DNA of 64,000 nucleotides from Caldicoprobacterales bacterium (GCA_050949255.1 JBMNFJ010000016.1:787809-851808); one strand, 5' to 3'. Shown: positions 858 to 60,370, counted from the stretch's first letter. The notes: generated by a model from the letters alone, not told the origin. Translations and numbers: made by a program.

Positions 858-933
858 TGGTGGGCCATCAGGGACTCGAACCCGGGACGCCCTGATTAAG
901 AGTCAGGTGCTCTACCAACTGAGCTAATGGCCC
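858..933 (-). tRNA. tRNA-Lys(CTT)
   Basis: Reverse complement GGGCCATTAGCTCAGTTGGTAGAGCACCTGACTCTTAATCAGG...CCCACCA folds as a cloverleaf. Anticodon loop is CTCTTAA and CCA is encoded. One C-U mismatch in the T stem. Confidence 0.85.
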
Positions 934-956
934 TCATAAAACAAATTAACTACTGA

Positions 957-1033
957 TGGCGCGCCCAGTAGGATTTGAACCTACGACCTCCAGATTCGAA
1001 GTCTGTAACTCTATCCAGCTGAGCTATGGGCGC
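957..1033 (-). tRNA. tRNA-Arg(TCG)
   Basis: Reverse complement GCGCCCATAGCTCAGCTGGATAGAGTTACAGACTTCGAATCTGG...GGGCGCGCCA. Anticodon loop CTTCGAA. Confidence 0.85.
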
Positions 1034-1037
1034 ATAT

Positions 1038-1111
<74 letters not shown>

Positions 1112-1115
1112 ATTT

Positions 1116-1190
1116 TGGAGCGGAAGACGGGATTCGAACCCGCGACATTCGCCTTGGCAAGGCGACGCTCTACCACTGAGCCACTCCCGC
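1116..1190 (-). tRNA. tRNA-Gly(GCC)
   Basis: Reverse complement GCGGGAGTGGCTCAGTGGTAGAGCGTCGCCTTGCCAAGGCGA...CCGCTCCA. Anticodon loop TTGCCAA. Confidence 0.9.
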
Positions 1191-1226
1191 ATATGATGTA
1201 TGCATAAACCCTATAAAATAAGAGTT

Positions 1227-1311
1227 TGGTGCGGGCGAAGAGATTCGAACTCCCACGCCTCGCGGCACTAGATCCTAAGTCTAGCGCGTCTGCCAGTTCC
1301 GCCACGCCCGC
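1227..1311 (-). tRNA. tRNA-Leu(TAG)
   Basis: 85-nt class II tRNA with a long variable arm. Anticodon stem-loop is CTAGA-CTTAGGA-TCTAG. Confidence 0.9.
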
Positions 1312-1334
1312 AAATAATAGCTATTAAGTTTAGA

Positions 1335-1410
1335 TGGTGACCCATCGGCGACTCGAACGCCGGACTCCTTGATTAAAAGTCAAGTGCTCTACCGACTGAG
1401 CTAATGGGTC
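1335..1410 (-). tRNA. tRNA-Lys(TTT)
   Basis: Reverse complement GACCCATTAGCTCAGTCGGTAGAGCACTTGACTTTTAATCAAGG...GGGTCACCA. Anticodon loop CTTTTAA. Confidence 0.9.
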
Positions 1411-1416
1411 AAAACT

Positions 1417-1491
1417 TGGCTGGGGCGGCAGGATTCGAACCTACGAATGCGGGAGTCAAAGTCCCGTGCCTTACCGCTTGGCTACGCCCCA
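1417..1491 (-). tRNA. tRNA-Gln(TTG)
   Basis: Reverse complement TGGGGCGTAGCCAAGCGGTAAGGCACGGGACTTTGACTCCCG...CCCCAGCCA. Anticodon loop CTTTGAC. Confidence 0.9.
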
Positions 1492-1497
1492 ATTTTG

Positions 1498-1575
1498 TGG
1501 GGTGGGTAACGGGATTCGAACCCACGACCTCCAGAGCCACAATCTGGCGCTCTAACCAACTGAGCTATACCCACC
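1498..1575 (-). tRNA. tRNA-His(GTG)
   Basis: Reverse complement GGTGGGTATAGCTCAGTTGGTTAGAGCGCCAGATTGTGGCTCTGG...ACCCACCCCA. Anticodon loop TTGTGGC, with the extra 5' G typical of tRNA-His. Confidence 0.9.
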
Positions 1576-1693
1576 ACAATTTTTTATTATTTTTTGTCAA
1601 AAGAGATTCTATTTGTTGAAGTTTCAAAAATATAGAATTTCAATTATATCTGTTGATAAATTTTTCTTGAATTAAATTTTTGAAACTTACTAT

Positions 1694-1770
<77 letters not shown>

Positions 1771-1781
1771 ATCTCATCGTC

Positions 1782-1855
<74 letters not shown>

Positions 1856-7050: not shown

Positions 7051-8295
7051 TTAAATATTCTCTGGTAGAATTTTATTTAATACAACCCCTATAATAGCCG
7101 CAAGGCTCATGCCTGATAGTGTAACACCTTGAACTATGGTAAATTCTACGCCGCTAAGGCCCATGACTAACATAAGTGATACAACTATAAGGTTCCTGCT
7201 TTTGGAAAAATCAATCTTAGCTTCAGATAAAGTCCTAAGACCTATGCTGGCGATCATTCCAAACAGTAATATACTAACGCCGCCCATTACTGGAGCAGGA
7301 ATAGTTTTTAGAAGTGCTCCTATCTTGCCAACAAGACCTAGAGCAATTGCAAATACAGCCGCTATCCTTAAAATAAAAGGATCGTATACTTTTGTAACTG
7401 CTAAAACACCGGTATTTTCGCTGTAGGTGGTATTTGAAGGTCCTCCTAACAGCCCAGCAAACATGGTAGCCACCCCATCGCCTATAAGCGTTCTATGGAG
7501 ACCAGGATCTTTAAAGAAATCCTTCCCTACTACTGCCCCGTTAGTAGTTATATCTCCAATATGCTCCATAAAGGTAACTATGGCTATTGGTGCTATAAGG
7601 GAGATCGCCTTAATATCAAACTTTGGTAGAGTGAATGGAGGCAGTGCAAAAATCGAAGCATCCCTTATTGGAGTAAAATCAACGAATCCAAACAGAATCG
7701 ATACTATATAGCCCACTAAAATTCCAAGCAAAATCGGTACCAGTCTAAAGAACCCTTTAACAAATATAGAGACTACAACCATAGTAACCACGACAGCTAA
7801 TACTATTATCCATCGTTGTCCTAATGTTCCCATTGCTAGCACCTCAGATCCCTCAACTCCAACTATGTTATTAATTATTATAGATGGACTCAAGGTTAAA
7901 CCTATAACCATAATCATAGGACCTGTTACCAAGGGCGGGAAAAAACTTCGTATTCTGTCTACACCGAAGATTAAAACCAGACCAGCCAACACAAGGTATA
8001 GTAACCCCGCAACTATGATTCCACCTCCAGCGTATGCAATCCCTTGATCAGCAACTACAGCAGAAATAGCTGTTATAAAAGCAAAGCTAGAACCCAGGAA
8101 TACTGGCACCTTGCCCTTGGTTAATAAATGGAAGATCAGAGTTCCTACTCCTGCTGTAAACAATGCAACTGATGGATCCAAGCCAGTCAACGCTGGAACT
8201 AAAACTGTTGCACCAAACATCGCAAATACATGTTGAATACCCAGGATTATAGTTTTCCATGGGCTAAGCTTTGTTCCTTGAACAATTGATTCCAT
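7051..8295 (-). CDS. pyrP: uracil permease (NCS2 family)
   Basis: 414-aa polytopic membrane protein. Directly downstream of pyrR with a PyrR attenuator in between, as in Bacillus pyrR-pyrP. Confidence 0.85.
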   Translation of the reverse strand: MESIVQGTKLSPWKTIILGIQHVFAMFGATVLVPALTGLDPSVALFTAGVGTLIFHLLTKGKVPVFLGSSFAFITAISAVVADQGIAYAGGGIIVAGLLYLVLAGLVLIFGVDRIRSFFPPLVTGPMIMVIGLTLSPSIIINNIVGVEGSEVLAMGTLGQRWIIVLAVVVTMVVVSIFVKGFFRLVPILLGILVGYIVSILFGFVDFTPIRDASIFALPPFTLPKFDIKAISLIAPIAIVTFMEHIGDITTNGAVVGKDFFKDPGLHRTLIGDGVATMFAGLLGGPSNTTYSENTGVLAVTKVYDPFILRIAAVFAIALGLVGKIGALLKTIPAPVMGGVSILLFGMIASIGLRTLSEAKIDFSKSRNLIVVSLMLVMGLSGVEFTIVQGVTLSGMSLAAIIGVVLNKILPENI

Positions 8296-8346: not shown

Positions 8347-8426
8347 ATAAAAAAATGCCTCGTAGTTAAACTACCAAGGCACAATACAGGTACTGTATTA
8401 TCCCTTGACAGCCTCACTGGACTGAT

Positions 8427-8427
<1 letters not shown>
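8347..8427 (-). promoter_or_regulatory. PyrR-dependent transcription attenuator (pyrR-pyrP spacer)
   Basis: Minus strand AATCAGTCCAGTGAGGCTGTCAAGGG matches the PyrR binding loop consensus (A/G)GUCCAGAGAGGCU. It is followed by the terminator GCCTTGGTAG-TTTAA-CTACGAGGC plus ATTTTTTT. Confidence 0.8.
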
Positions 8428-8969
<542 letters not shown>

Positions 8970-17429: not shown

Positions 17430-17506
17430 CGGGGTGTGGCGCAGTTTGGAAGCGCACGTGCTTTGGGAGCATGGGGCCGGGGGTTCAAATCCCTCCACCC
17501 CGACCA
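17430..17506 (+). tRNA. tRNA-Pro(TGG)
   Basis: CGGGGTGTGGCGCAGTTTGGAAGCGCACGTGCTTTGGGAGCATG...CCCCGACCA. Anticodon loop TTTGGGA. Confidence 0.9.
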
Positions 17507-17526
17507 TATAAGAATTATCCTTATGT

Positions 17527-17601
17527 GGCCCCTTGGTCAAGTGGTTAAGACACCGCCCTTTCACGGCGGTAACAGGGGTTCGAGTCCCCTAGGGGTCACC
17601 A
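17527..17601 (+). tRNA. tRNA-Glu(TTC)
   Basis: GGCCCCTTGGTCAAGTGGTTAAGACACCGCCCTTTCACGGCGG...GGGGTCACCA. Anticodon loop CTTTCAC. Confidence 0.9.
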
Positions 17602-17608
17602 TACATAA

Positions 17609-17685
17609 GGGCCTTTAGCTCAGTTGGTTAGAGCAACCGGCTCATAACCGGTCGGTCCGGGGTTCGAGTCCCTGAAGGCCCACCA
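17609..17685 (+). tRNA. tRNA with CAT anticodon, probably tRNA-Ile2 (lysidine) rather than Met
   Basis: GGGCCTTTAGCTCAGTTGGTTAGAGCAACCGGCTCATAACCGGT...AAGGCCCACCA. The body resembles Ile tRNAs as remembered. Anticodon loop CTCATAA. Confidence 0.8.
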
Positions 17686-17702
17686 TTTTCTTTAATATAA
17701 AC

Positions 17703-17779
17703 GGCCCGGTAGTTCAGATGGTTAGAATGCCAGCCTGTCACGCTGGAGGTCGAGGGTTCGAGCCCCTTCCGGGTCGCCA
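17703..17779 (+). tRNA. tRNA-Asp(GTC)
   Basis: GGCCCGGTAGTTCAGATGGTTAGAATGCCAGCCTGTCACGCTGG...CGGGTCGCCA. Anticodon loop CTGTCAC. Confidence 0.9.
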
Positions 17780-17788
17780 TATTTTTTT

Positions 17789-17864
17789 GCCTCGGTAGCT
17801 CAGTCGGTAGAGCAGCAGACTGAAAATCTGCGTGTCGGTGGTTCGATTCCGCCCCGAGGCACCA
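17789..17864 (+). tRNA. tRNA-Phe(GAA)
   Basis: GCCTCGGTAGCTCAGTCGGTAGAGCAGCAGACTGAAAATCTGC...CGAGGCACCA. Anticodon loop CTGAAAA. Confidence 0.9.
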
Positions 17865-17884
17865 TCTTTTTGCCTAGTTGTCGT

Positions 17885-17972
17885 GCGAAAGTGGCGGAAT
17901 TGGCAGACGCGCTAGATTCAGGTTCTAGTGGGCAAAACGCTCATGGGGGTTCGACTCCCCCCTTTCGCACCA
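17885..17972 (+). tRNA. tRNA-Leu(CAG)
   Basis: 88-nt class II tRNA GCGAAAGTGGCGGAATTGGCAGACGCGCTAGATTCAGGTTCTAG...CTTTCGCACCA. Anticodon loop TTCAGGT. Confidence 0.9.
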
Positions 17973-50675: not shown

Positions 50676-51506
50676 TTATAATTCAGAATGTGCTGCTTTA
50701 ACTGTATCGTCTATGAGGTGTCCATATTCTATATCATTTTTATAAGGACTAACAGTATTCCCCTGCCCTTTATACAAATGTATTAGAAATTCAATATTAC
50801 CCTTGGGTCCCTTAATGGGAGAAAAAGTTAATCCTTTGAAAGTCAAACCTAATTGAAGGCAGGTAGATAAAACTTCACTTAAGACTTCCTTATGAATATC
50901 AGGGGATCTAACAACCCCGTTTTTACCTACCTTTTCTCTGCCAGCTTCAAATTGAGGCTTTATTAGGGATACTATATGGCTGTCGGGTAGTAATATCTCT
51001 TTTACTACGGGTAATACAATCTTTAATGAGATAAATGAGACATCTATTACCGCACCCTGGGGCTCGTCCTCCAGGTCATCCCTTGTCACATCACGAATGT
51101 TAACCCTCTCCATGACAACAACTCTATGATCTTGTCTAAGTTTCCAGGCCAATTGGCCATATCCTACATCAATGGAATATACCTTCTTTGCTCCATATTT
51201 CAAGAGGCAGTCGGTAAATCCCCCTGTAGAAGCGCCTACATCAATATAGACCCTGTCTTCAACTGGAGGTTTAAAGATATCCAATGCTTTTTGGAGTTTA
51301 AGACCTCCCCTACTTACGAAGGGAATGGGATCTTCTTCAACAATTATAGCCGATTCGGGTGATATCAGGGTGCCTGGTTTGTCCACCATTTGCCCATCTA
51401 CACGCACTACTCCGGACAGAATAATACGCTTTGCTTTTTCCCGGGATAGTGCTAAACCCTTATTGACCAGAATTATGTCAAGCCTTTGTTTTGAGGTTGT
51501 GGACAT
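50676..51506 (-). CDS. tlyA: TlyA family rRNA (cytidine-2'-O)-methyltransferase
   Basis: Start at MSTTSKQRLD (ATG at 51506, SD AAGGAG). S4 domain, then FtsJ-like DVGASTGGFTD. Confidence 0.9.
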   Translation of the reverse strand: MSTTSKQRLDIILVNKGLALSREKAKRIILSGVVRVDGQMVDKPGTLISPESAIIVEEDPIPFVSRGGLKLQKALDIFKPPVEDRVYIDVGASTGGFTDCLLKYGAKKVYSIDVGYGQLAWKLRQDHRVVVMERVNIRDVTRDDLEDEPQGAVIDVSFISLKIVLPVVKEILLPDSHIVSLIKPQFEAGREKVGKNGVVRSPDIHKEVLSEVLSTCLQLGLTFKGLTFSPIKGPKGNIEFLIHLYKGQGNTVSPYKNDIEYGHLIDDTVKAAHSEL

Positions 51507-53403
51507 ATATATTCTCCTTAACACCGTGCAAAAAGCACTTTATCCTATTGGCTACACTATTTGGATCAAGGTGTAGCAATTGTATTAGCTGATCTACTTT
51601 TCCTTGAGGTACGAAAGTATCCGGAATACCTAAACTGATCATATTAATATCCAAACCCTTGTTATTAATATAATTAATAATTGAGCTGCCAAATCCACCC
51701 GTTAAAACATTGTCCTCTAGGGTGATCCAATGGGTATGGCTCATGGAAAGAGATTGTAGGGTATCCTCATCCAATGGTTTTATACATCTTGTATTTACAA
51801 CTTGTGCATTTATTCCTAATCCCTTTAGAAGTTCAGCCGCCTCGATGGCAACCTGCAACATTTTACCGAAAGAGAATATACAACAATCCTCTCCATACAC
51901 TAATGTTTCCCAATCATAAGGATTAAACGGGGTTTTGTTCTCGGAATAGGGCAGTGAAGAAGAATTAACATAACCTTTGGGATACCTAATGGCAATTGGT
52001 CCATTAACATGCAATGAAAAATCCATTATATCCCTTAGTTCATTGGTATCTTTAGGGGCAAATATTGCCAAATTGGGTATATGGTTTAAGTAGCTGATAT
52101 CGAATATGCCCTGATGTGTTTCTCCATCCTCCCCTACCAAGCCTGCACGATCGATAGCAAACCTCACGGGTAGATTTTGAATACAAACATCATGAAGGAT
52201 TTGGTCATAAGCACGCTGAAGGAAAGTCGAATAAATAGCTACATAAGGCTTTAGTCCACTATTGGCAAGTCCTGCTGCCATAGTAACAGCATGCTGTTCT
52301 GCTATTCCAACATCAAAAAAGCGATTGGGATACCGTTCTTGAAATTTTATTAAGCCTGTCGATTCCGGCATTGCAGCAGTGATGGCAACCACTTTGTCGT
52401 CTTTACCCGCCAGCTCCACCAATTTGTTACCAAATGCCCCTGAAAAAGTTTCACAAGCTATCCCCTTGGTCCTTCCAGTTTCCATTGTAAAGGGGGGGAC
52501 CCCATGAAAGAACTCCGGATCCTTCTCTGCATATTCGTAGCCCTTACCCTTTTGGGTGATTACATGAATGAGTACAGGACCTTCCATTCTTGAAGCTTGT
52601 CCTAATACATTAATCAGGCTGTTAATATTATGTCCATCAATAGGTCCAAGATATCTAAAGCCCATTTCTTCAAATATCATACCGTGTACCAGAAGTGATT
52701 TAAAACCCCTTTTTATTAATTCAATTGATCTGAATATGGGCTTACCAATCCATGGTATTCCATCAAGCATCTTTTGTATGCCCTTTTTAAACCAATTATA
52801 TTTTGAACTTGACCTGACCTTGGATAAGTGACCAGCCAGTGCACCGACATTTTGCGAAATGGACATCTCATTATCATTTAACACAACTATTAGGTTTGTC
52901 TTGGTATGTCCTGCATCATTAAGGGCTTCAAAAGCCATTCCTCCGGTAAGCGCCCCGTCACCAACAACAGCTATAACATGATGTTTATCACAATCCTTAA
53001 TATCTCTAGCCCTGGCTATACCTAAGGCCGCTGATATAGCTGTACTGCTGTGACCTGTTCCAAAAATATCGTGTTCGCTTTCATCAGGTTTAGGAAAGCC
53101 ACTAAGCCCACCTAATTGTCTGAGAGAAGTGAACATATCCTTTCTTCCAGTTAAGATCTTATGTACATATGATTGGTGCCCAACATCCCAAATAATCTTG
53201 TCAATGGGACTGTTGAAAACATAATGAAGCGCTAATGTTAACTCAACTACGCCTAAGTTTGATGCCAGGTGGCCACCAGTATTAGAAACACTGTCCAATA
53301 TAAAGGCCCGTATCTCTTTACATAACTGATCCATTTCGTCTAATGTCAATGCCTTGAGATCCATAGGCTTATCTATCGAATTAAGCAATGAATACTTAGT
53401 CAT
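51478..53403 (-). CDS. dxs: 1-deoxy-D-xylulose-5-phosphate synthase
   Basis: 641 aa. Contains GGHLASNLGVVELTLALH, GHSSTAISAALG and GDGALTGGMAFEALN. The ATG overlaps the oapA stop (ATGA). The 3' end overlaps the tlyA start by 29 nt. Confidence 0.95.
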   Translation of the reverse strand: MTKYSLLNSIDKPMDLKALTLDEMDQLCKEIRAFILDSVSNTGGHLASNLGVVELTLALHYVFNSPIDKIIWDVGHQSYVHKILTGRKDMFTSLRQLGGLSGFPKPDESEHDIFGTGHSSTAISAALGIARARDIKDCDKHHVIAVVGDGALTGGMAFEALNDAGHTKTNLIVVLNDNEMSISQNVGALAGHLSKVRSSSKYNWFKKGIQKMLDGIPWIGKPIFRSIELIKRGFKSLLVHGMIFEEMGFRYLGPIDGHNINSLINVLGQASRMEGPVLIHVITQKGKGYEYAEKDPEFFHGVPPFTMETGRTKGIACETFSGAFGNKLVELAGKDDKVVAITAAMPESTGLIKFQERYPNRFFDVGIAEQHAVTMAAGLANSGLKPYVAIYSTFLQRAYDQILHDVCIQNLPVRFAIDRAGLVGEDGETHQGIFDISYLNHIPNLAIFAPKDTNELRDIMDFSLHVNGPIAIRYPKGYVNSSSLPYSENKTPFNPYDWETLVYGEDCCIFSFGKMLQVAIEAAELLKGLGINAQVVNTRCIKPLDEDTLQSLSMSHTHWITLEDNVLTGGFGSSIINYINNKGLDINMISLGIPDTFVPQGKVDQLIQLLHLDPNSVANRIKCFLHGVKENIYVHNLKTKA

Positions 53404-54020
53404 TTCATTTCTTTCCTTTTGGTTATCCTATTGTTTTTATCTTTGCTTGAGCTATTTGCTGAAAAAAACGATAACAGATAGCCAACACTATATACTATTT
53501 GCTGACCCTTATTAATGGCCAGGCTCTTTCCCATGGCTTTACCTGCCACCGTTATGGCTGCAATGAGACTGCTTATCAATATGGTCAACATGTCTGGGTT
53601 AAATCCAACTCTAACCATTTTTACGACCAACATACTACCCGCCGCACCGCTAACTATTCCGCATATATCGCCTACAACATCATTACAAAAGTTTGATACT
53701 ATATCAGCGTTTTTTACTAAGTTAAGGGCTTGCTTTGCACCCTTTATTTTTTTTGACGACATTGACAAGAAAGGTGTTTCAGGCGTTGATGTTACAGCAA
53801 TTCCAATTATATCAAATATAACCCCTATCAATATAATAATAAATATAATAGACAGGGGTAACAGAAAATTAGCAGATGAAGAAAATGTCTTTTGAGACAC
53901 AATGCTAAAAACTATGGAAATAACAAATGTTACAAAAAAAATTTTCAAAACCCAGTGATTTTTAGATTTATCGTTCTTTTTTTTAGTGCTAATGGATTTT
54001 GGCAAACCAAAGCCTCGCAT
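53400..54020 (-). CDS. oapA: OLE-associated membrane protein OapA (206 aa)
   Basis: An internal ATG at 54018-54020 with AGGAG 7 nt upstream starts a basic N-terminus (STKKKNDKSKN) followed by about four TM helices, including a DVVGD (DxxxD) motif. Sits directly between the OLE-like RNA and dxs. The upstream 125 codons of the 331-aa track ORF lie within the structured RNA. Confidence 0.7.
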   Translation of the reverse strand: MRGFGLPKSISTKKKNDKSKNHWVLKIFFVTFVISIVFSIVSQKTFSSSANFLLPLSIIFIIILIGVIFDIIGIAVTSTPETPFLSMSSKKIKGAKQALNLVKNADIVSNFCNDVVGDICGIVSGAAGSMLVVKMVRVGFNPDMLTILISSLIAAITVAGKAMGKSLAINKGQQIVYSVGYLLSFFSANSSSKDKNNRITKRKEMK

Positions 54021-54033
54021 TTCTTTACTCCTA

Positions 54034-54645
54034 AGGATCTCTATATAGGATCCTAAAAATAGTAATCTGGTGGTGATGAATTGGATAAACTTTGCGGCTT
54101 TGGTCCAGTAGGATTTCCCGAACCCGTACTTCTCGTCGCCGAAAAAGCGGTTTCCCTTTAAACGAATCCTTACCGTGTCGCCAACGATAAAACTGGATCG
54201 CCATAACACCACACTGTAATCTCCAACCCATCCCATAATGGGCAGTCTAGGAGCTTTCCTCAACAGTCCAAACCAATTTCTAGCCTCTTTTGCAGAAAGG
54301 ATTTCATAAGGCAAAAATCTTAGTTCATGGGCCCTATGAACATCGATCCGATCCTTAATCCGCCCATTCCACTCAAGGCAGGCTACTCTGTACACAGCTT
54401 TTATTCACCGCAATACAGGTTTAATCCCAAGTAGTAGTAGAGCTCACCACCGGCTTGGGTCTCCACGAAAGCTGGGTCAACGCCCGCATGCCCTTGCGGA
54501 TCGCCCTTCTTTCTTAACTCCCAGCACCAGCCCCCAACTGGGCGTTAGATGCCAGCACCAGGAACTTCATCGATGTGCCCTCAACGGATTTTTAGGCCCG
54601 TCTTCAAAACTGGTTGCACTGACTAGAATACTGCACCACCAGAAT
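54034..54645 (-). ncRNA. ole: OLE (ornate, large, extremophilic) RNA candidate, about 600 nt
   Basis: GC-rich non-coding block in an AT-rich genome. The 5' CTGGTGGTG (complement of 54634-54642) is exactly complementary to the 3' CACCACCAG (complement of 54067-54075), giving a long-range closing helix. Many internal GC hairpins. A terminal AGGATC-N9-GATCCT hairpin abuts the oapA SD. Gene context (xseA-xseB-ispA-[RNA]-membrane protein-dxs-tlyA-nadK-argR-recN) is the one described for OLE. Confidence 0.72.
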
Positions 54646-54680
54646 AATAATTATAACATAACTATAAATAATATACAAAT

Positions 54681-55124
54681 TTAAAAGAATAACCTTGAAA
54701 TCAGAAAACCCAAAACTGCACCAGCAATAACTTCAATCGGTGTATGACCTAATAGTTCTTTTAATTTTTCTTCAGAAACACTTCTGCTGGTATGAATCTG
54801 TTCCAGTATTTCATTGAGTACGGCTGCTTGTTTCCCTGCCGCTCTTCTTACACCGGCAGCATCATACATAACTATTAGTGAAAAGGTTAAGGCTAATGCA
54901 AACATGGGAGAATCATACCCTTCAAATCTCCCCACAGACGTAGCTAATGATACTACAAGGGCAGAGTGAGAGCTTGGCATCCCGCCTGCCCCAATAAATC
55001 TTCTAATATCGAATTTCCTATTAAAAATAAATGTAAGAATAACTTTTAATAACTGGGCTACAAACCACGCCAACAGGCTAACCCAAAGAATATTATTGTA
55101 GAGCAACTGGGTATAGTAACTCAT
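54681..55124 (-). CDS. divergent PAP2 (DUF212, acid phosphatase/vanadium haloperoxidase-related) membrane protein
   Basis: 147 aa. Contains GGMPSSHSALVVSL and MYDAAGVRRAAGKQA. Confidence 0.75.
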   Translation of the reverse strand: MSYYTQLLYNNILWVSLLAWFVAQLLKVILTFIFNRKFDIRRFIGAGGMPSSHSALVVSLATSVGRFEGYDSPMFALALTFSLIVMYDAAGVRRAAGKQAAVLNEILEQIHTSRSVSEEKLKELLGHTPIEVIAGAVLGFLISRLFF

Positions 55125-55134
55125 GGGATACCTC

Positions 55135-56028
55135 CTAATTATGCCTATTAATAATGAATCTAGCCAATTCGCTTAAAAATTTACCCCCTGAGCCGAATAT
55201 AGCCAGCTGGTCCACTGCTCTCTCGTAGAGCTCCTTGGCTATAGACCTAGACCCATCTAGCCCATATTTATCCACATAGGTAGCTTTTCCCTTATCCTTA
55301 TCCCTACCGGTCTGTTTCCCCATTTCCCTAGAATTTCCAGTAACGTCCAGGATATCGTCAACAACTTGAAAAGCCAAACCTAGAGAGCTTCCATACTCCT
55401 TTAGTGCTCTCGAAATATAATCCGGTGGATCCTCCAGGATTATGCCGGCTAAAATAGAGGCCATGAAGAGAGAGCCTGTTTTATGATCATGAATGTATTT
55501 GAGGGTGTCAGCTGTAACCTTTTTCCCTTCGTTTTCCAGATCTACTACCTGCCCTGCTATCATGCCTCTTATACCTGCTGCTTGGGCAATAGCATTTATG
55601 GCTTTTATATGCCTTACAAGCCTATCCTGATACAACAGAGCATTTTCCAACATAGTTTCATATGCCAAGTTCAATAGGGCATCTCCAGAGAGTATGGCAA
55701 TTCCCTCTCCAAACTTTTTGTGGTTGGTTGGTATACCTCTTCTATAATCATCATTATCCATAGCCGGCAGATCATCATGTATCAGGGAATATGTGTGTAT
55801 CATTTCTAATCCCCCAGCTAAGGGCATGGATTCTTCTATGTTTCCCCCTAATAACCTATGAATCGATAATAAGATAATTGGGCGTAATCGTTTGCCCCCG
55901 GCGAACAGGCTATATTCTATCGAATCATAGATTATGCCAGGATATCTTTCCATTTTCCCTAATAAGTTATATAGGTAATCATTAATAAGCCCCATTAGTT
56001 GATTGTACTGTCTATCGAATTCACACAT
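55135..56028 (-). CDS. ispA: farnesyl diphosphate synthase (polyprenyl synthetase family)
   Basis: 297 aa. First DDxxD-type motif IHDDLPAMDNDDYRRG and second motif VVDDILD. Confidence 0.92.
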   Translation of the reverse strand: MCEFDRQYNQLMGLINDYLYNLLGKMERYPGIIYDSIEYSLFAGGKRLRPIILLSIHRLLGGNIEESMPLAGGLEMIHTYSLIHDDLPAMDNDDYRRGIPTNHKKFGEGIAILSGDALLNLAYETMLENALLYQDRLVRHIKAINAIAQAAGIRGMIAGQVVDLENEGKKVTADTLKYIHDHKTGSLFMASILAGIILEDPPDYISRALKEYGSSLGLAFQVVDDILDVTGNSREMGKQTGRDKDKGKATYVDKYGLDGSRSIAKELYERAVDQLAIFGSGGKFLSELARFIINRHN

Positions 56029-58936: not shown

Positions 58937-59155
58937 TCACCCCTTGGGCAGTATTTTATCCAGGAAATTCATAAATCTTTCCTGCCTATCGTTCATACCA
59001 CCTATCCAATAACCAATACCAACGCATATTGACAAAATTACGGTTTTCCAAAATCCGATCGTTACGATAATAATTCCGACTATTAATCCCAGGGATACTC
59101 CTACGATTCTTCCTCTATGATCCTGCCATGCCCTGCTAAAAAACTCCTTATCCAT
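58937..59155 (-). CDS. DUF2273 small integral membrane protein
   Basis: 72 aa, two TM segments. Third member of the asp23-amaP-DUF2273 trio known from Firmicutes. Confidence 0.7.
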   Translation of the reverse strand: MDKEFFSRAWQDHRGRIVGVSLGLIVGIIIVTIGFWKTVILSICVGIGYWIGGMNDRQERFMNFLDKILPKG

Positions 59156-59167
59156 CTAACTTCCTCC

Positions 59168-59734
59168 TCATTGAACCTTTGGTCGCTGCTGAGGTGCAGT
59201 GAGATTATCGATATAAACAAATACTTCTTTCACTAAAATTCCAGCATAGCCTTCAATGTATTCCTTAACCTTTTTCTGTATACTAACGGACAAATCCTGT
59301 AAGACCACATCAGGCATAATTGATACCTTTAGTCGTATTTTTACTCCATCATCCTCATTCAATATGCTTATCTTTGAATCCCTTACTTCGTTAAAGCCAT
59401 TAACCGCTTTATGAGTCATCGCTTCCAAGGTATTTATGGATATACGGATTATACCCAGGTCTGTGTGTTTTAATAGAGCACTGCTCGGCACTTTTGGTCT
59501 ATTACCGGAAAAAAGCAGTTTAATGCTCACAACTAGAAAGAATATGCACACTAGAGTACTGACAAGAAAAAATCGCCAATCGGGCTGAAAACTTCCGAGA
59601 AAATAATTGATATTCTTCAAGGGAATTATATTAACACCTATTGCTATAAAAAGCACCAAAATAGCAATGGATATAATAGCAACAACCAATGTATAGATGG
59701 TCAATAACAATCGATTAAGTAAACCTATTTTCAT
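59168..59734 (-). CDS. amaP: alkaline shock response membrane anchor protein AmaP
   Basis: About 188 aa, two N-terminal TM segments. Directly downstream of asp23. Start placed at the ATG at 59734. Confidence 0.7.
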   Translation of the reverse strand: MKIGLLNRLLLTIYTLVVAIISIAILVLFIAIGVNIIPLKNINYFLGSFQPDWRFFLVSTLVCIFFLVVSIKLLFSGNRPKVPSSALLKHTDLGIIRISINTLEAMTHKAVNGFNEVRDSKISILNEDDGVKIRLKVSIMPDVVLQDLSVSIQKKVKEYIEGYAGILVKEVFVYIDNLTAPQQRPKVQ

Positions 59735-59817
59735 CCTGCCCAAGCCTCCCTTTATCTACCTATCTTGTAATAATTATACATGTATAAACCCCCTGAAAAT
59801 GCCAGGAGGTTAACACA

Positions 59818-60201
59818 CTATTGTTTTATACTATGCTGTTCGCTGATTTCCTTGTGAAATTCGATTCCCTGTATGTATATGTTCACTTCAACAACTGTTA
59901 GCCCTGTCATAGTTTCAATGGACTTTTTGACATTCTCTTGGACATTCCAGGCGACCTCGGGAATTTGCACTCCATATTCAACATTCATAAAAAGGTCAAC
60001 TGCAGCTTCTTTTTCTCCAACTTCTACCTTTACACCCCTGGTTGGACTCTTTTTACCAAACTTTTCGACGATACCGGCACTCATAGAAGCTACACCTTTT
60101 ACTTCTAATGCGGCAAGGCCGGCAATAGTAGCTACTACATCATCGGCGAAGGTAACCTTACCATATTCATCAATATTGGTTTGCATAGATTCATCTGCCA
60201 A
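59818..60201 (-). CDS. asp23: Asp23/Gls24 family envelope stress protein
   Basis: Contains GKVTFADDVVATIAGLAALEVKGVASMS. Start placed at the TTG at 60201, 6 nt after GGAGGTG. The ORF-track start lies inside the SD. Confidence 0.85.
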   Translation of the reverse strand: MADESMQTNIDEYGKVTFADDVVATIAGLAALEVKGVASMSAGIVEKFGKKSPTRGVKVEVGEKEAAVDLFMNVEYGVQIPEVAWNVQENVKKSIETMTGLTVVEVNIYIQGIEFHKEISEQHSIKQ

Positions 60202-60370
60202 ATTGTTCACCTCCAAATTATTAACAATAGAGACAACATAAATAATACTATAATAGTATTTTCAAAAAATAGTCCTATCTATATTAGTATATTATAGCAA
60301 AACAAAAACCTCTTTACAAACTATCCATCCTAAAAAATATAACAATAGATAAGAAAACTCTCCATAGACG

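What the first reader, a model, noticed from the sequence alone, without database searches (positions are those of the whole stretch)
54034..54645. OLE-type large structured RNA hidden under a spurious 331-aa ORF between PAP2/ispA and oapA-dxs
Seen in sequence: about 600 nt on the minus strand are visibly much more GC-rich than the AT-rich flanks. There is no SD in front of the ORF-track start at 54395. The 5' segment CTGGTGGTG is perfectly complementary to CACCACCAG about 560 nt downstream, which makes a long-range closing helix. In between lie many GC hairpins, for example GTTCAT-AGGGCCC-ATGAAC and CCCAAG...CTTGGG. A final AGGATC-N9-GATCCT hairpin abuts the SD of the next gene. Established knowledge: OLE RNA (Breaker lab, 2006 onward) is about 610 nt, is restricted to anaerobic/extremophilic Firmicutes, and characteristically lies downstream of ispA and immediately upstream of oapA and dxs within an xseA-xseB-ispA-ole-oapA-dxs-tlyA-nadK-argR-recN block. 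That is the order found here. Inference: this is the ole locus. The RNA class is known, but its mechanism is still unresolved, and automated ORF calling has masked it here.
Basis: partly seen in the sequence, partly recalled or inferred. Interest (0 to 1): 0.8.

Follow-up and report, generated by a model that had tools for sequence, protein, structure and literature searches.

The report
A standard OLE RNA gene
This stretch is a textbook copy of OLE RNA, a well-known large structured bacterial RNA that works with the membrane protein OapA encoded next to it; automatic annotation has hidden it under an over-extended protein call, so the find is correct but ordinary.

Summary
The Rfam OLE model (RF01071) matches window 54655..54054 on the minus strand end to end, at 512.6 bits against a threshold of 50 (E 1.6e-148).

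- **Structure:** 144 of the 157 consensus pairs that could be mapped onto this sequence are canonical. Across 106 OLE loci the structure is 90% paired, against about 42% when the partners are slid.
- **Closing helix:** CTGGTGGT/ACCACCAG is the known P1 stem. It is 94.7% paired and 7 of its 8 pairs covary. It bounds a 576-nt core, 54642..54067.
GTTCAT-AGGGCCC-ATGAAC is the P9 tip with its palindromic dimerisation loop. CCCAAG...CTTGGG is P7.
- **Gene order:** xseA-xseB-ispA-DUF212-ole-oapA-dxs-tlyA-nadK-argR-recN, all on the minus strand.
- **The 331-aa ORF:** it is a real 206-aa oapA (ATG 54020, good Shine-Dalgarno (SD) ribosome-binding site, invariant DxxxD) plus a spurious 125-codon extension. 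No homologue shares the extension, and its substitutions show no codon periodicity. Public records of this uncultured Clostridiales MAG do carry the 331-aa call.

Nothing departs from published OLE biology. The class is known, its biochemical mechanism is still unsolved, and this copy adds only an annotation correction. Novelty: already known. Interest: low.

The parts
54054..54655 (-). Full extent of the Rfam RF01071 (OLE RNA) match. The 5' end of the model overlaps the -10 promoter box and the 3' end is an unstructured tail.
   Evidence: 512.6 bits, gathering score 50, E 1.6e-148, model positions 1-616 of 616, not truncated.
54067..54642 (-). OLE RNA core bounded by stem P1 (576 nt, 49.5% GC). 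This is the likely mature RNA.
   Evidence: In B. halodurans the 5' ends map near the start of P1 (PMC3413148).
54635..54642 (-). P1 5' strand, CUGGUGGU.
   Evidence: helix 1: 94.7% of cells paired and 7 of 8 pairs changed on both sides across 106 loci.
54067..54074 (-). P1 3' strand, ACCACCAG.
54650..54678 (-). Proximal ole promoter: -35-like TTGTAT (54678-54673), a 17-nt spacer, and an extended -10 TGTTATAAT (54658-54650). It ends 7 nt before P1.
   Evidence: Read from the sequence. A TATAAT-like box lies within 22 nt of P1 in 84 of 106 OLE loci, and 64 of those have the TG extension. The equivalent promoter is experimentally active in B. halodurans (PMC3413148). Its function here is inferred.
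54583..54602 (-). Hairpin GACGGG-CCUAAAAA-UCCGUU with the conserved A-rich loop. By my reading this is P4, a dimerisation contact in the cryo-EM models.
   Evidence: Rfam helix. helix 2: 99.2% paired. The role comes from PMC12265935. Assigning the name P4 to this hairpin is my inference.
54323..54341 (-). Tip of the long P9 arm, GUUCAU-AGGGCCC-AUGAAC, with a palindromic GGGCCC loop (the site of the P9-P9 kissing contact).
   Evidence: the GGCC core is present in 101 of 106 loci, and the 6-mer is fully palindromic in 57 of those 101. The kissing-loop role comes from PMC12265935.
54168..54188 (-). P13-type hairpin, UUAUC-G-UUG-GCGA-CAC-GGUAA: a GNRA tetraloop plus a single-nucleotide bulge, which are the features OapB needs for binding. 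A second GCGA-capped hairpin follows (P14.1 type).
   Evidence: alignment. helix 25: 93.8% paired. The binding determinants come from PMC7936274.
54034..54054 (-). Hairpin AGGAUC-N9-GAUCCU between OLE and the oapA SD. It is lineage specific and has no U-tail, so it is not an intrinsic terminator.
   Evidence: z -2.2 in the window; a differently built hairpin in the sister species (z -0.45); absent in C. oshimai.
53400..54020 (-). oapA: a 206-aa membrane protein with four hydrophobic segments, a K/R-rich N-terminus and an invariant DxxxD motif (D114-D118). Its SD AGGAG lies at 54032-54028.
   Evidence: 3,433 homologues, and those listed or aligned run from about 125 to 249 aa (mostly 181-249). 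DVVGD is invariant in 22 sequences; hydropathy; weak CNNM hit, E 9e-4; oapA is adjacent to ole in 97 of 97 loci.
54021..54395 (-). Spurious 125-codon N-terminal extension of the oapA call (GTG 54395), lying over the 3' two-thirds of OLE.
   Evidence: no homologue has it; substitutions against C. oshimai fall 19/22/19 over the three codon positions; in 106 other loci the oapA frame never opens earlier than 361 nt after the GGGCAC motif (median 557), against 176 nt here.
54681..55124 (-). DUF212 (divergent PAP2 family) membrane protein gene between ispA and ole.
   Evidence: PF02681, E 2.8e-53; same position in 19 of 96 other OLE loci.
55135..56028 (-). ispA (polyprenyl synthetase).
   Evidence: PF00348, E 7e-56.
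51478..53403 (-). dxs (1-deoxy-D-xylulose-5-phosphate synthase). It overlaps the oapA stop codon by 4 nt.
   Evidence: PF13292, E 4e-124.

Best explanation
Window 54642..54067 (minus strand) encodes a canonical, full-length OLE (ornate, large, extremophilic) RNA of an uncultured anaerobic Clostridiales bacterium related to Caldicoprobacter.

The likely sequence of events is as follows.
1. The RNA is transcribed from its own extended -10 promoter just upstream of stem P1, and also by read-through from the xseA-ispA-DUF212 genes.
2. It folds into the roughly 25-helix OLE architecture closed by P1.
3. It is captured at the cell membrane by OapA, the CNNM-like four-helix protein encoded immediately downstream and translated from ATG 54020.
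4. By analogy with the studied OLE RNAs, two RNA molecules dimerise through the A-rich P4 loop, the P5.1/P6.1 loops and the palindromic P9 loop. The complex recruits OapB at the GNRA-capped, bulged P13 hairpin and other partners (OapC, bS21).
5. The ribonucleoprotein then helps the cell tolerate alcohol, cold, excess Mg2+ and poor carbon sources. The most probable route is modulation of OapA-dependent divalent-cation handling at the membrane.

Shown here: identity, structure, boundaries, the conserved partner gene and the mis-annotation.
Inferred from B. halodurans and Clostridium work: membrane localisation, dimerisation, protein partners and physiological role.
Unknown for the whole class: the biochemical activity of the RNA.
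For: - Rfam RF01071 matches at 512.6 bits (threshold 50), E 1.6e-148, over the full model length.
- 144 of the 157 consensus pairs mapped onto this sequence are canonical.
- On an alignment of 106 OLE loci from a genome-wide motif scan, the Rfam structure plus P1 is 90.0% paired, against 40-46% for slid controls. 135 of 165 pairs change on both sides, and 0 of 500 shuffles reach the observed values.
- Against the closest sampled OLE (C. oshimai, 82% identity), 47 pairs are touched by substitutions: 18 are compensated on both sides, 22 stay canonical after a one-sided change, and 7 are broken.
- The oapA homologue lies directly downstream, with invariant DxxxD, four hydrophobic segments and weak CNNM similarity. 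That matches the published description of OapA (PMC11332333, PMC12265935).
- oapA follows ole in 97 of 97 sampled loci.
- The gene neighbourhood is the classic one.
- An extended -10 box sits 7 nt before P1 and is conserved across OLE loci. This matches the active proximal promoter and the 5' ends near P1 reported in B. halodurans (PMC3413148).
- The P9 palindromic loop, the A-rich P4 loop and the GNRA-plus-bulge P13 hairpin are all present (PMC12265935, PMC7936274).
- No intrinsic terminator lies between ole and oapA.
Against: There is no expression data for this organism. Transcription, the 5' and 3' ends, abundance and membrane localisation are therefore all inferred.

The oapB and oapC genes are not in the window, so their presence in this genome is untested.

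Thirteen consensus pairs are non-canonical here, and the P7 hairpin is 10 nt shorter than the model. Both lie within the normal variation of that region.

The mechanism of the class itself is unresolved. The transmembrane-RNA and ion-transport ideas are still hypotheses in the literature (PMC12265935).
Confidence: 0.97

Rival explanations
1. The 331-aa ORF (53400..54395) is a real protein: an OapA with a lineage-specific 125-residue N-terminal domain. On this view the RNA-like features are incidental.
For: The frame is open from 54404 and a GTG lies at 54395. Gene callers predict this protein on every contig of the species.
Against: - None of the other 21 OapA sequences aligned has any residues opposite the extension. 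The homologues listed run from about 125 to 249 aa.
- The 88%-identical sister protein is 209 aa. In that species a different, out-of-frame 133-aa ORF is called over OLE, or none at all.
- There is no canonical SD before the GTG, whereas ATG 54020 has AGGAG with a 7-nt spacer.
- Substitutions in the extension are spread evenly over the three codon positions (19/22/19) but respect RNA base pairing.
- In 106 other loci the frame is closed by stops well inside OLE.
- The extension has no Pfam or NCBIfam match.
- The OLE covariance model explains the whole region at E 1e-148.
Confidence: 0.01
2. The structured region acts mainly in cis, as a long 5' leader that controls oapA-dxs expression (riboswitch-like or attenuator-like), rather than as a free-standing RNA.
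For: No terminator separates ole from oapA. A hairpin abuts the oapA SD, and in the minimum-free-energy fold its extension pairs a U-run with AGGAG. ole and oapA are always adjacent.
Against: - In B. halodurans OLE accumulates as a single, very stable species of about 600 nt. It is among the most abundant RNAs and acts together with the OapA protein, and distal-site complementation with ole-oap restores function (PMC3413148).
- Size, 25% invariant nucleotides and protein-binding sites are those of an RNP scaffold (PMC12265935).
- The SD-proximal hairpin is not conserved even in the nearest genus and is barely better than shuffles.
Confidence: 0.02

Closest known systems
OLE RNA (Rfam RF01071), full-length type as defined by Fernando and Breaker 2024; studied examples come from Halalkalibacterium (Bacillus) halodurans, Clostridium acetobutylicum and C. 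botulinum
   Same: - Full-length match to the model.
- All major helices are present, including P1 and the P7, P8 and P9 regions that are shortened or absent in variants 1 and 2.
- Conserved loops: the A-rich P4 loop, the GCC/GGC loops, and the palindromic GGCC loop of P9.
- GNRA-capped, bulged P13.
- A proximal promoter at P1.
- oapA directly downstream, and the ispA/dxs/tlyA/nadK/argR/recN neighbourhood.
   Different: - Only 82% identical to the nearest sampled species (C. oshimai).
- The P7 hairpin is 10 nt shorter than the model consensus.
- The P9 loop is GGGCCC rather than the commonest UGGCCA.
- The P13 bulge is G rather than U.
- A DUF212 gene lies between ispA and ole. This minority arrangement is seen in about 20% of sampled loci.
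- A lineage-specific hairpin precedes the oapA SD.

None of these falls outside known family variation.
OapA (OLE-associated protein A), a distant relative of the CNNM/DUF21 domain of MpfA/CorB Mg2+ transporters
   Same: About 200 aa, four hydrophobic segments, a basic N-terminal cluster, an invariant DxxxD motif, a sub-threshold match to Pfam CNNM, and a position immediately 3' of ole.
   Different: It lacks the CBS and CorC domains of MpfA, as all OapA proteins do. The public annotation of this protein carries a false 125-aa N-terminal extension.
Other large ornate bacterial RNAs (GOLLD, ROOL, raiA/ModT)
   Same: They are large, highly structured non-coding RNAs of unknown or recently proposed function. 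OLE, GOLLD and ROOL form homo-oligomers in cryo-EM (PMC12286853).
   Different: They have no sequence or structure relationship to this locus. Rfam finds only OLE here.

Membership tests
OLE RNA (RF01071) | Scores above the family's curated covariance-model threshold over the full model length. | tested here: met
   512.6 bits against 50, model positions 1-616 of 616, no truncation.
OLE RNA (RF01071) | The conserved multi-helix secondary structure is supported by covariation, and this sequence can form it. | tested here: met
   144 of 157 mapped pairs are canonical; 90.0% paired across 106 loci against 40-46% for slid controls, and 135 of 165 pairs change on both sides; 18 double compensatory changes against C. 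oshimai.
OLE RNA (RF01071) | Long-range P1 stem joining the 5' and 3' ends. | tested here: met
   helix 1: 94.7% paired and 7 of 8 pairs covary. The window has 8 Watson-Crick pairs. P1 is named in PMC3413148 and PMC12265935. It is not annotated in the Rfam consensus structure.
OLE RNA (RF01071) | Blocks of near-invariant nucleotides (about 25% of positions), including the UCUAG/CUAGA palindromes proposed as OapA sites. | tested here: met
   the invariant columns are all matched by the window row (for example GCAGUAU-UCUAGUC, GGGCACAUCGAUGAAGUUCC, CCUAGACUG). The P2 pairing cannot be tested by covariation because both strands are invariant.
OLE RNA (RF01071) | Dimerisation loops seen by cryo-EM: the A-rich P4 loop, complementary P5.1/P6.1 loops and the palindromic P9 loop. 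| tested here: met
   Sequence elements present: CCUAAAAA loop, GCCCA and GGGCA loops, GGGCCC loop. Actual dimerisation cannot be tested with these tools.
OLE RNA (RF01071) | oapA gene immediately downstream on the same strand. | tested here: met
OLE RNA (RF01071) | Host is an anaerobic or extremophilic member of Bacillota. | tested here: met
   the identical OapA comes from a 'Clostridiales bacterium' MAG; the closest OLE is in Caldicoprobacter oshimai. The window carries the sporulation genes spo0A, spoIVB and spoIIM. The habitat was not examined.
OLE RNA (RF01071) | Abundant, stable transcript of about 600 nt that localises to the membrane. | not testable with these tools
   This needs RNA-seq, a northern blot or imaging. 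Only the promoter motif and the absence of a terminator are available.
OLE 'full-length' type versus variant 1 or 2 (Fernando and Breaker 2024) | P7, P8 and a long P9 are present, and the OapB site at the P13 tip is present. | tested here: met
   alignment: all of these helices are present, and P13 carries a GCGA tetraloop and a 1-nt bulge. The published bit-score cut-off (390 or more) was set with a different model, so the 512.6 bits is only indicative.
OapA | About 200 aa, four transmembrane segments, a DxxxD motif, a basic cytoplasmic cluster and weak CNNM similarity. | tested here: met
   D114 and D118 are invariant in 22 sequences, four hydrophobic segments are found, and the N-terminus contains KKKNDKSK. 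PF01595 at E 9e-4, below the gathering score, as reported for OapA (PMC11332333).
OLE RNP partners OapB and OapC | Genes for OapB (a KOW-like protein) and OapC (a k-turn-binding protein) are present in the genome. | not tested
   These genes are normally elsewhere in the genome. They were not looked for among the window's small ORFs, and the rest of the genome was not available.

The most novel reading that the evidence does not exclude
In the Caldicoprobacter-like lineage the ole locus may carry two lineage-level additions with functional meaning.

1. The DUF212 (divergent PAP2) membrane phosphatase-like gene is wedged between ispA and ole in about 20% of sampled OLE loci. It could be a previously unlisted functional partner that links the OLE particle to isoprenoid or lipid-carrier phosphate metabolism at the membrane.

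2. The hairpin at 54054-54034, whose extended fold pairs a U-run with the oapA SD, could couple OapA translation to OLE 3'-end formation.

Neither idea is excluded by my data, and neither is supported beyond gene adjacency and a weak fold.
Probability: 0.08. Interest if true: 0.4.

Novelty: already known. Interest (0 to 1): 0.15.

Why it matters
The value here is practical rather than conceptual.

- **Annotation correction:** a well-known non-coding RNA is missing from the public annotation of this widespread anaerobic-digester or metagenome organism. Its place is taken by a false 331-aa 'hypothetical protein' that appears on at least 67 contigs and is propagated into protein databases. The fix is to annotate ole at about 54642..54067 and shorten oapA to 206 aa.
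- **A further sequence for the family:** the locus adds one more divergent full-length OLE, 82% identical to its nearest sampled relative. It can contribute covariation to structural models, including P1, which the Rfam consensus structure does not annotate.
- **No bearing on the open question:** what OLE RNA does biochemically remains unanswered, and this copy does not help answer it.

Tried and rejected
- **Source genome:** I looked for it among 120 OLE loci from the genome collection. The organism was identified instead through the exact OapA protein.
- **NCBIfam:** it has no model that matches OapA, DUF212, the 331-aa ORF or the 66-aa ORF inside OLE.
- **Promoter scan:** the simple scan missed the ole promoter because its -35 box matches only 3 of 6 positions. 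The extended -10 was found by reading the alignment.
- **3' hairpin as terminator or SD-sequestering switch:** it has no U-tail, z is only -2.2, the stem is built differently in the sister species (z -0.45), and it is absent in C. oshimai. I kept this only as a low-probability idea.
- **Literature on DUF212:** a search for a reported link between OLE and YuiD found no paper, and a term search for PAP2 and DUF212 in one OLE paper found nothing.
- **P2 pairing (UCUAG/CUAGA):** I considered testing it by covariation, but both strands are invariant, so the test says nothing.
- **Measure of ORF extension:** the first version was confounded by where the BLAST match started. I replaced it with the position where the frame opens relative to the OLE motif.

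Full report
**Observation**

The region is a GC-rich island. The core 54067-54642 is 49.5% GC, in a window that averages 38.3%. Only 0.9% of 576-nt windows are as GC-rich, the 38-nt 5' flank is 7.9% GC and the 46-nt 3' flank is 28.3%.

The mechanical ORF list contains 53400..54395 on the minus strand, with a GTG start and 331 aa.
- CTGGTGGTG at 54642-54634 and CACCACCAG at 54075-54067
- GTTCAT-AGGGCCC-ATGAAC at 54341-54323
- CCCAAG...CTTGGG
- AGGATC-N9-GATCCT at 54054-54034, followed by AGGAG (54032-54028) and ATG at 54020

**Identity**

The Rfam covariance model for OLE RNA (RF01071) matches 54655..54054 on the minus strand. The score is 512.6 bits against a gathering score of 50, with E 1.6e-148. 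The match covers model positions 1-616 of 616 and is not truncated. It is the only non-tRNA, non-PyrR hit in the whole window.

I transferred the Rfam consensus structure onto the sequence. Of the 157 pairs that could be mapped, 144 are canonical. The only sizeable departure is a 10-nt shorter terminal part of the P7 hairpin.

**Independent structural test**

I aligned 105 of them that had complete flanks with the window (A1).

Counting the Rfam pairs plus the proposed closing helix on that alignment gives these results:
- 90.0% of cells form standard pairs, against 40-46% when the 3' partners are slid by 1-3 columns.
- 135 of 165 pairs change on both sides.
- 0 of 500 shuffles reach the observed values.

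The alignment was made by MAFFT without structural guidance, so these figures are, if anything, conservative.

The Rfam consensus structure leaves it unpaired. Here it is 94.7% paired, and 7 of its 8 pairs covary: GC, AU, UA and CG all occur at the outer positions. P1 therefore delimits a 576-nt core, 54642..54067.

**Comparison with close relatives**

The nearest sampled OLE is that of Caldicoprobacter oshimai, at 82% identity. Of the 47 base pairs touched by substitutions between the two, 18 are compensated on both sides, 22 remain canonical after a one-sided change and 7 are broken.

A sister species was recovered through its 88%-identical OapA (L121-L123). Its OLE core differs at 19 positions.

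**The ORF**

The 331-aa ORF is real only in part.
- Its last 206 codons, from ATG 54020 with the AGGAG SD, encode OapA. There are 3,433 homologues. Those listed or aligned run from about 125 to 249 aa, mostly 181-249.
- DxxxD (D114-D118) is invariant in a 22-sequence alignment. The protein has four hydrophobic segments and a basic N-terminus.
- It gives a sub-threshold CNNM hit. All of this matches the published description of OapA (PMC11332333, PMC12265935).

The first 125 codons have no counterpart in any of the aligned homologues and no family match. There is no canonical SD before the GTG. Substitutions fall 19/22/19 over the three codon positions.

In 106 other OLE loci the oapA frame never opens earlier than 361 nt after the 20-mer (median 557), against 176 nt here. 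The open frame is therefore a chance feature of this species.

The mis-call is nevertheless in the databases. The identical 331-aa 'hypothetical protein GX394_03795 [Clostridiales bacterium]' stands for 17 member sequences on 67 contigs and is called on every contig inspected, including GCA_012843055.1. In the sister species, callers place a different, out-of-frame 133-aa ORF over OLE, or none at all.

**Surroundings**

All genes listed here are on the minus strand. The order is:

recA - two Asp23-family genes - DUF2273 - nusB - folD - xseA - xseB - ispA - DUF212 (divergent PAP2) - ole - oapA - dxs - tlyA (S4 + FtsJ) - nadK - argR - recN - spoIVB - spo0A

This is the classic ole neighbourhood (PMC12265935).

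In the sampled loci, oapA follows ole in 97 of 97. ispA is directly upstream in 69 of 96 and one gene further away in 17. A DUF212 gene occupies the ispA-ole gap in 19 of 96, including C. oshimai. The 'PAP2' gene is therefore a recurrent minority arrangement, not a peculiarity of this window.

**Expression signals**

The 38-nt gap between the DUF212 stop codon (54681) and P1 holds TTGTAT, a 17-nt spacer, and TGTTATAAT. The -10 box ends 7 nt before P1.

A TATAAT-like box lies within 22 nt of P1 in 84 of 106 loci, and 64 of those carry the TG extension. This corresponds to the proximal promoter shown to be active in B. halodurans, where the 5' ends map near the start of P1 (PMC3413148).

No intrinsic terminator is found on the minus strand between ole and oapA. 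oapA can therefore be reached by the same transcripts.

The 54054-54034 hairpin lacks a U-tail. Its minimum-free-energy fold extends to pair UUUUU with AGGAG (z -2.2). The sister species has a differently built hairpin (z -0.45), and C. oshimai has none. I treat it as a lineage-specific element of uncertain meaning.

**Functional elements of the RNA**

- GUUCAU-AGGGCCC-AUGAAC is the tip of the long P9 arm. Its GGGCCC loop is a perfect palindrome. GGCC is present in 101 of 106 loci and the 6-mer is palindromic in 57 of those 101. This fits the P9-P9 kissing contact of the cryo-EM dimers (PMC12265935, PMC12286853).
- The CCUAAAAA loop (P4 by my reading) and the GCCCA/GGGCA loops are present.
- The P13-type hairpin carries a GCGA tetraloop and a single-nucleotide bulge, which are the determinants of OapB binding. 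A second GCGA hairpin follows (PMC7936274).
- The invariant UCUAG and CUAGA palindromes proposed as OapA sites are intact.

**Mechanism**

Shown here: this is an OLE RNA gene with its cognate oapA.

Inferred from experiments in other species:
- The RNA is abundant and stable, and OapA takes it to the membrane.
- It dimerises and binds OapB, OapC and bS21.
- The particle protects against alcohols, cold, excess Mg2+ and poor carbon sources (PMC3413148, PMC10898510, PMC12054373, PMC12265935).

The working idea I consider most likely is that the RNA supplies to the CNNM-like OapA the regulatory functions that CBS and CorC domains supply to MpfA-type Mg2+ transporters (PMC11332333). The chemistry remains unknown for the whole class.

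**Novelty**

OLE RNA has been known since 2006. It is curated in Rfam, and a GTDB-wide scan reported it in 2,846 genome assemblies (PMC11332333). This copy is of the full-length type and shows no departure from the family.

The finding is a correct recognition of a known element and a useful annotation correction. It is not a discovery.

Noticed in passing
window 54681-55124 (-); L095 and 18 other loci: A DUF212 (divergent PAP2 family) membrane protein gene sits between ispA and ole. The same arrangement occurs in 19 of 96 sampled OLE loci. A search for papers linking OLE to YuiD found none, and a term search for PAP2/DUF212 in one OLE paper found nothing.
   Followed up: partly
window 54034-54059 (-): This is the hairpin between OLE and oapA. 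Its extended fold pairs a U-run with the oapA Shine-Dalgarno sequence (z -2.2). The sister species has a differently built hairpin, and C. oshimai has none.
   Followed up: partly
protein P0001; loci L124-L127, L121-L123: The false 331-aa OapA call is propagated in public protein sets (17 member sequences, 67 contigs). In the sister species an unrelated 133-aa ORF is called over OLE instead.
   Followed up: yes
alignment A1, columns 62-69 with 879-886: The Rfam RF01071 consensus structure leaves the P1 stem (and P2) unpaired, although P1 covaries strongly in 106 loci.
   Followed up: yes
L062, L049, L114: Three OLE-bearing contigs are labelled Deltaproteobacteria, Fibrobacter and Pseudomonas. 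They are probably binning or contamination errors, or horizontal transfer, as already noted in the literature for non-Bacillota hits (PMC11332333).
   Followed up: no
window 861-1855 (-) and 17430-17969 (+): There are two tRNA gene arrays, of 10 and 6 tRNAs.
   Followed up: no
window 8348-8437 (-): A PyrR-binding element scores just above its Rfam threshold (58.9 bits against 54), upstream of the ORF at 7051-8295.
   Followed up: no
window 59168-60216 (-) and 58937-59155 (-): Two Asp23-family genes and a DUF2273 small membrane protein gene lie upstream of nusB. They are probably the yqhY-type cell-envelope stress genes often listed among ole neighbours (PMC12265935).
   Followed up: no
window 51478-51524: The ORFs for dxs (51478-53403) and tlyA (50676-51524) overlap by 47 nt as listed mechanically. 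In public calls tlyA is 276 aa rather than 282 aa, so its true start is probably a few codons downstream.
   Followed up: no
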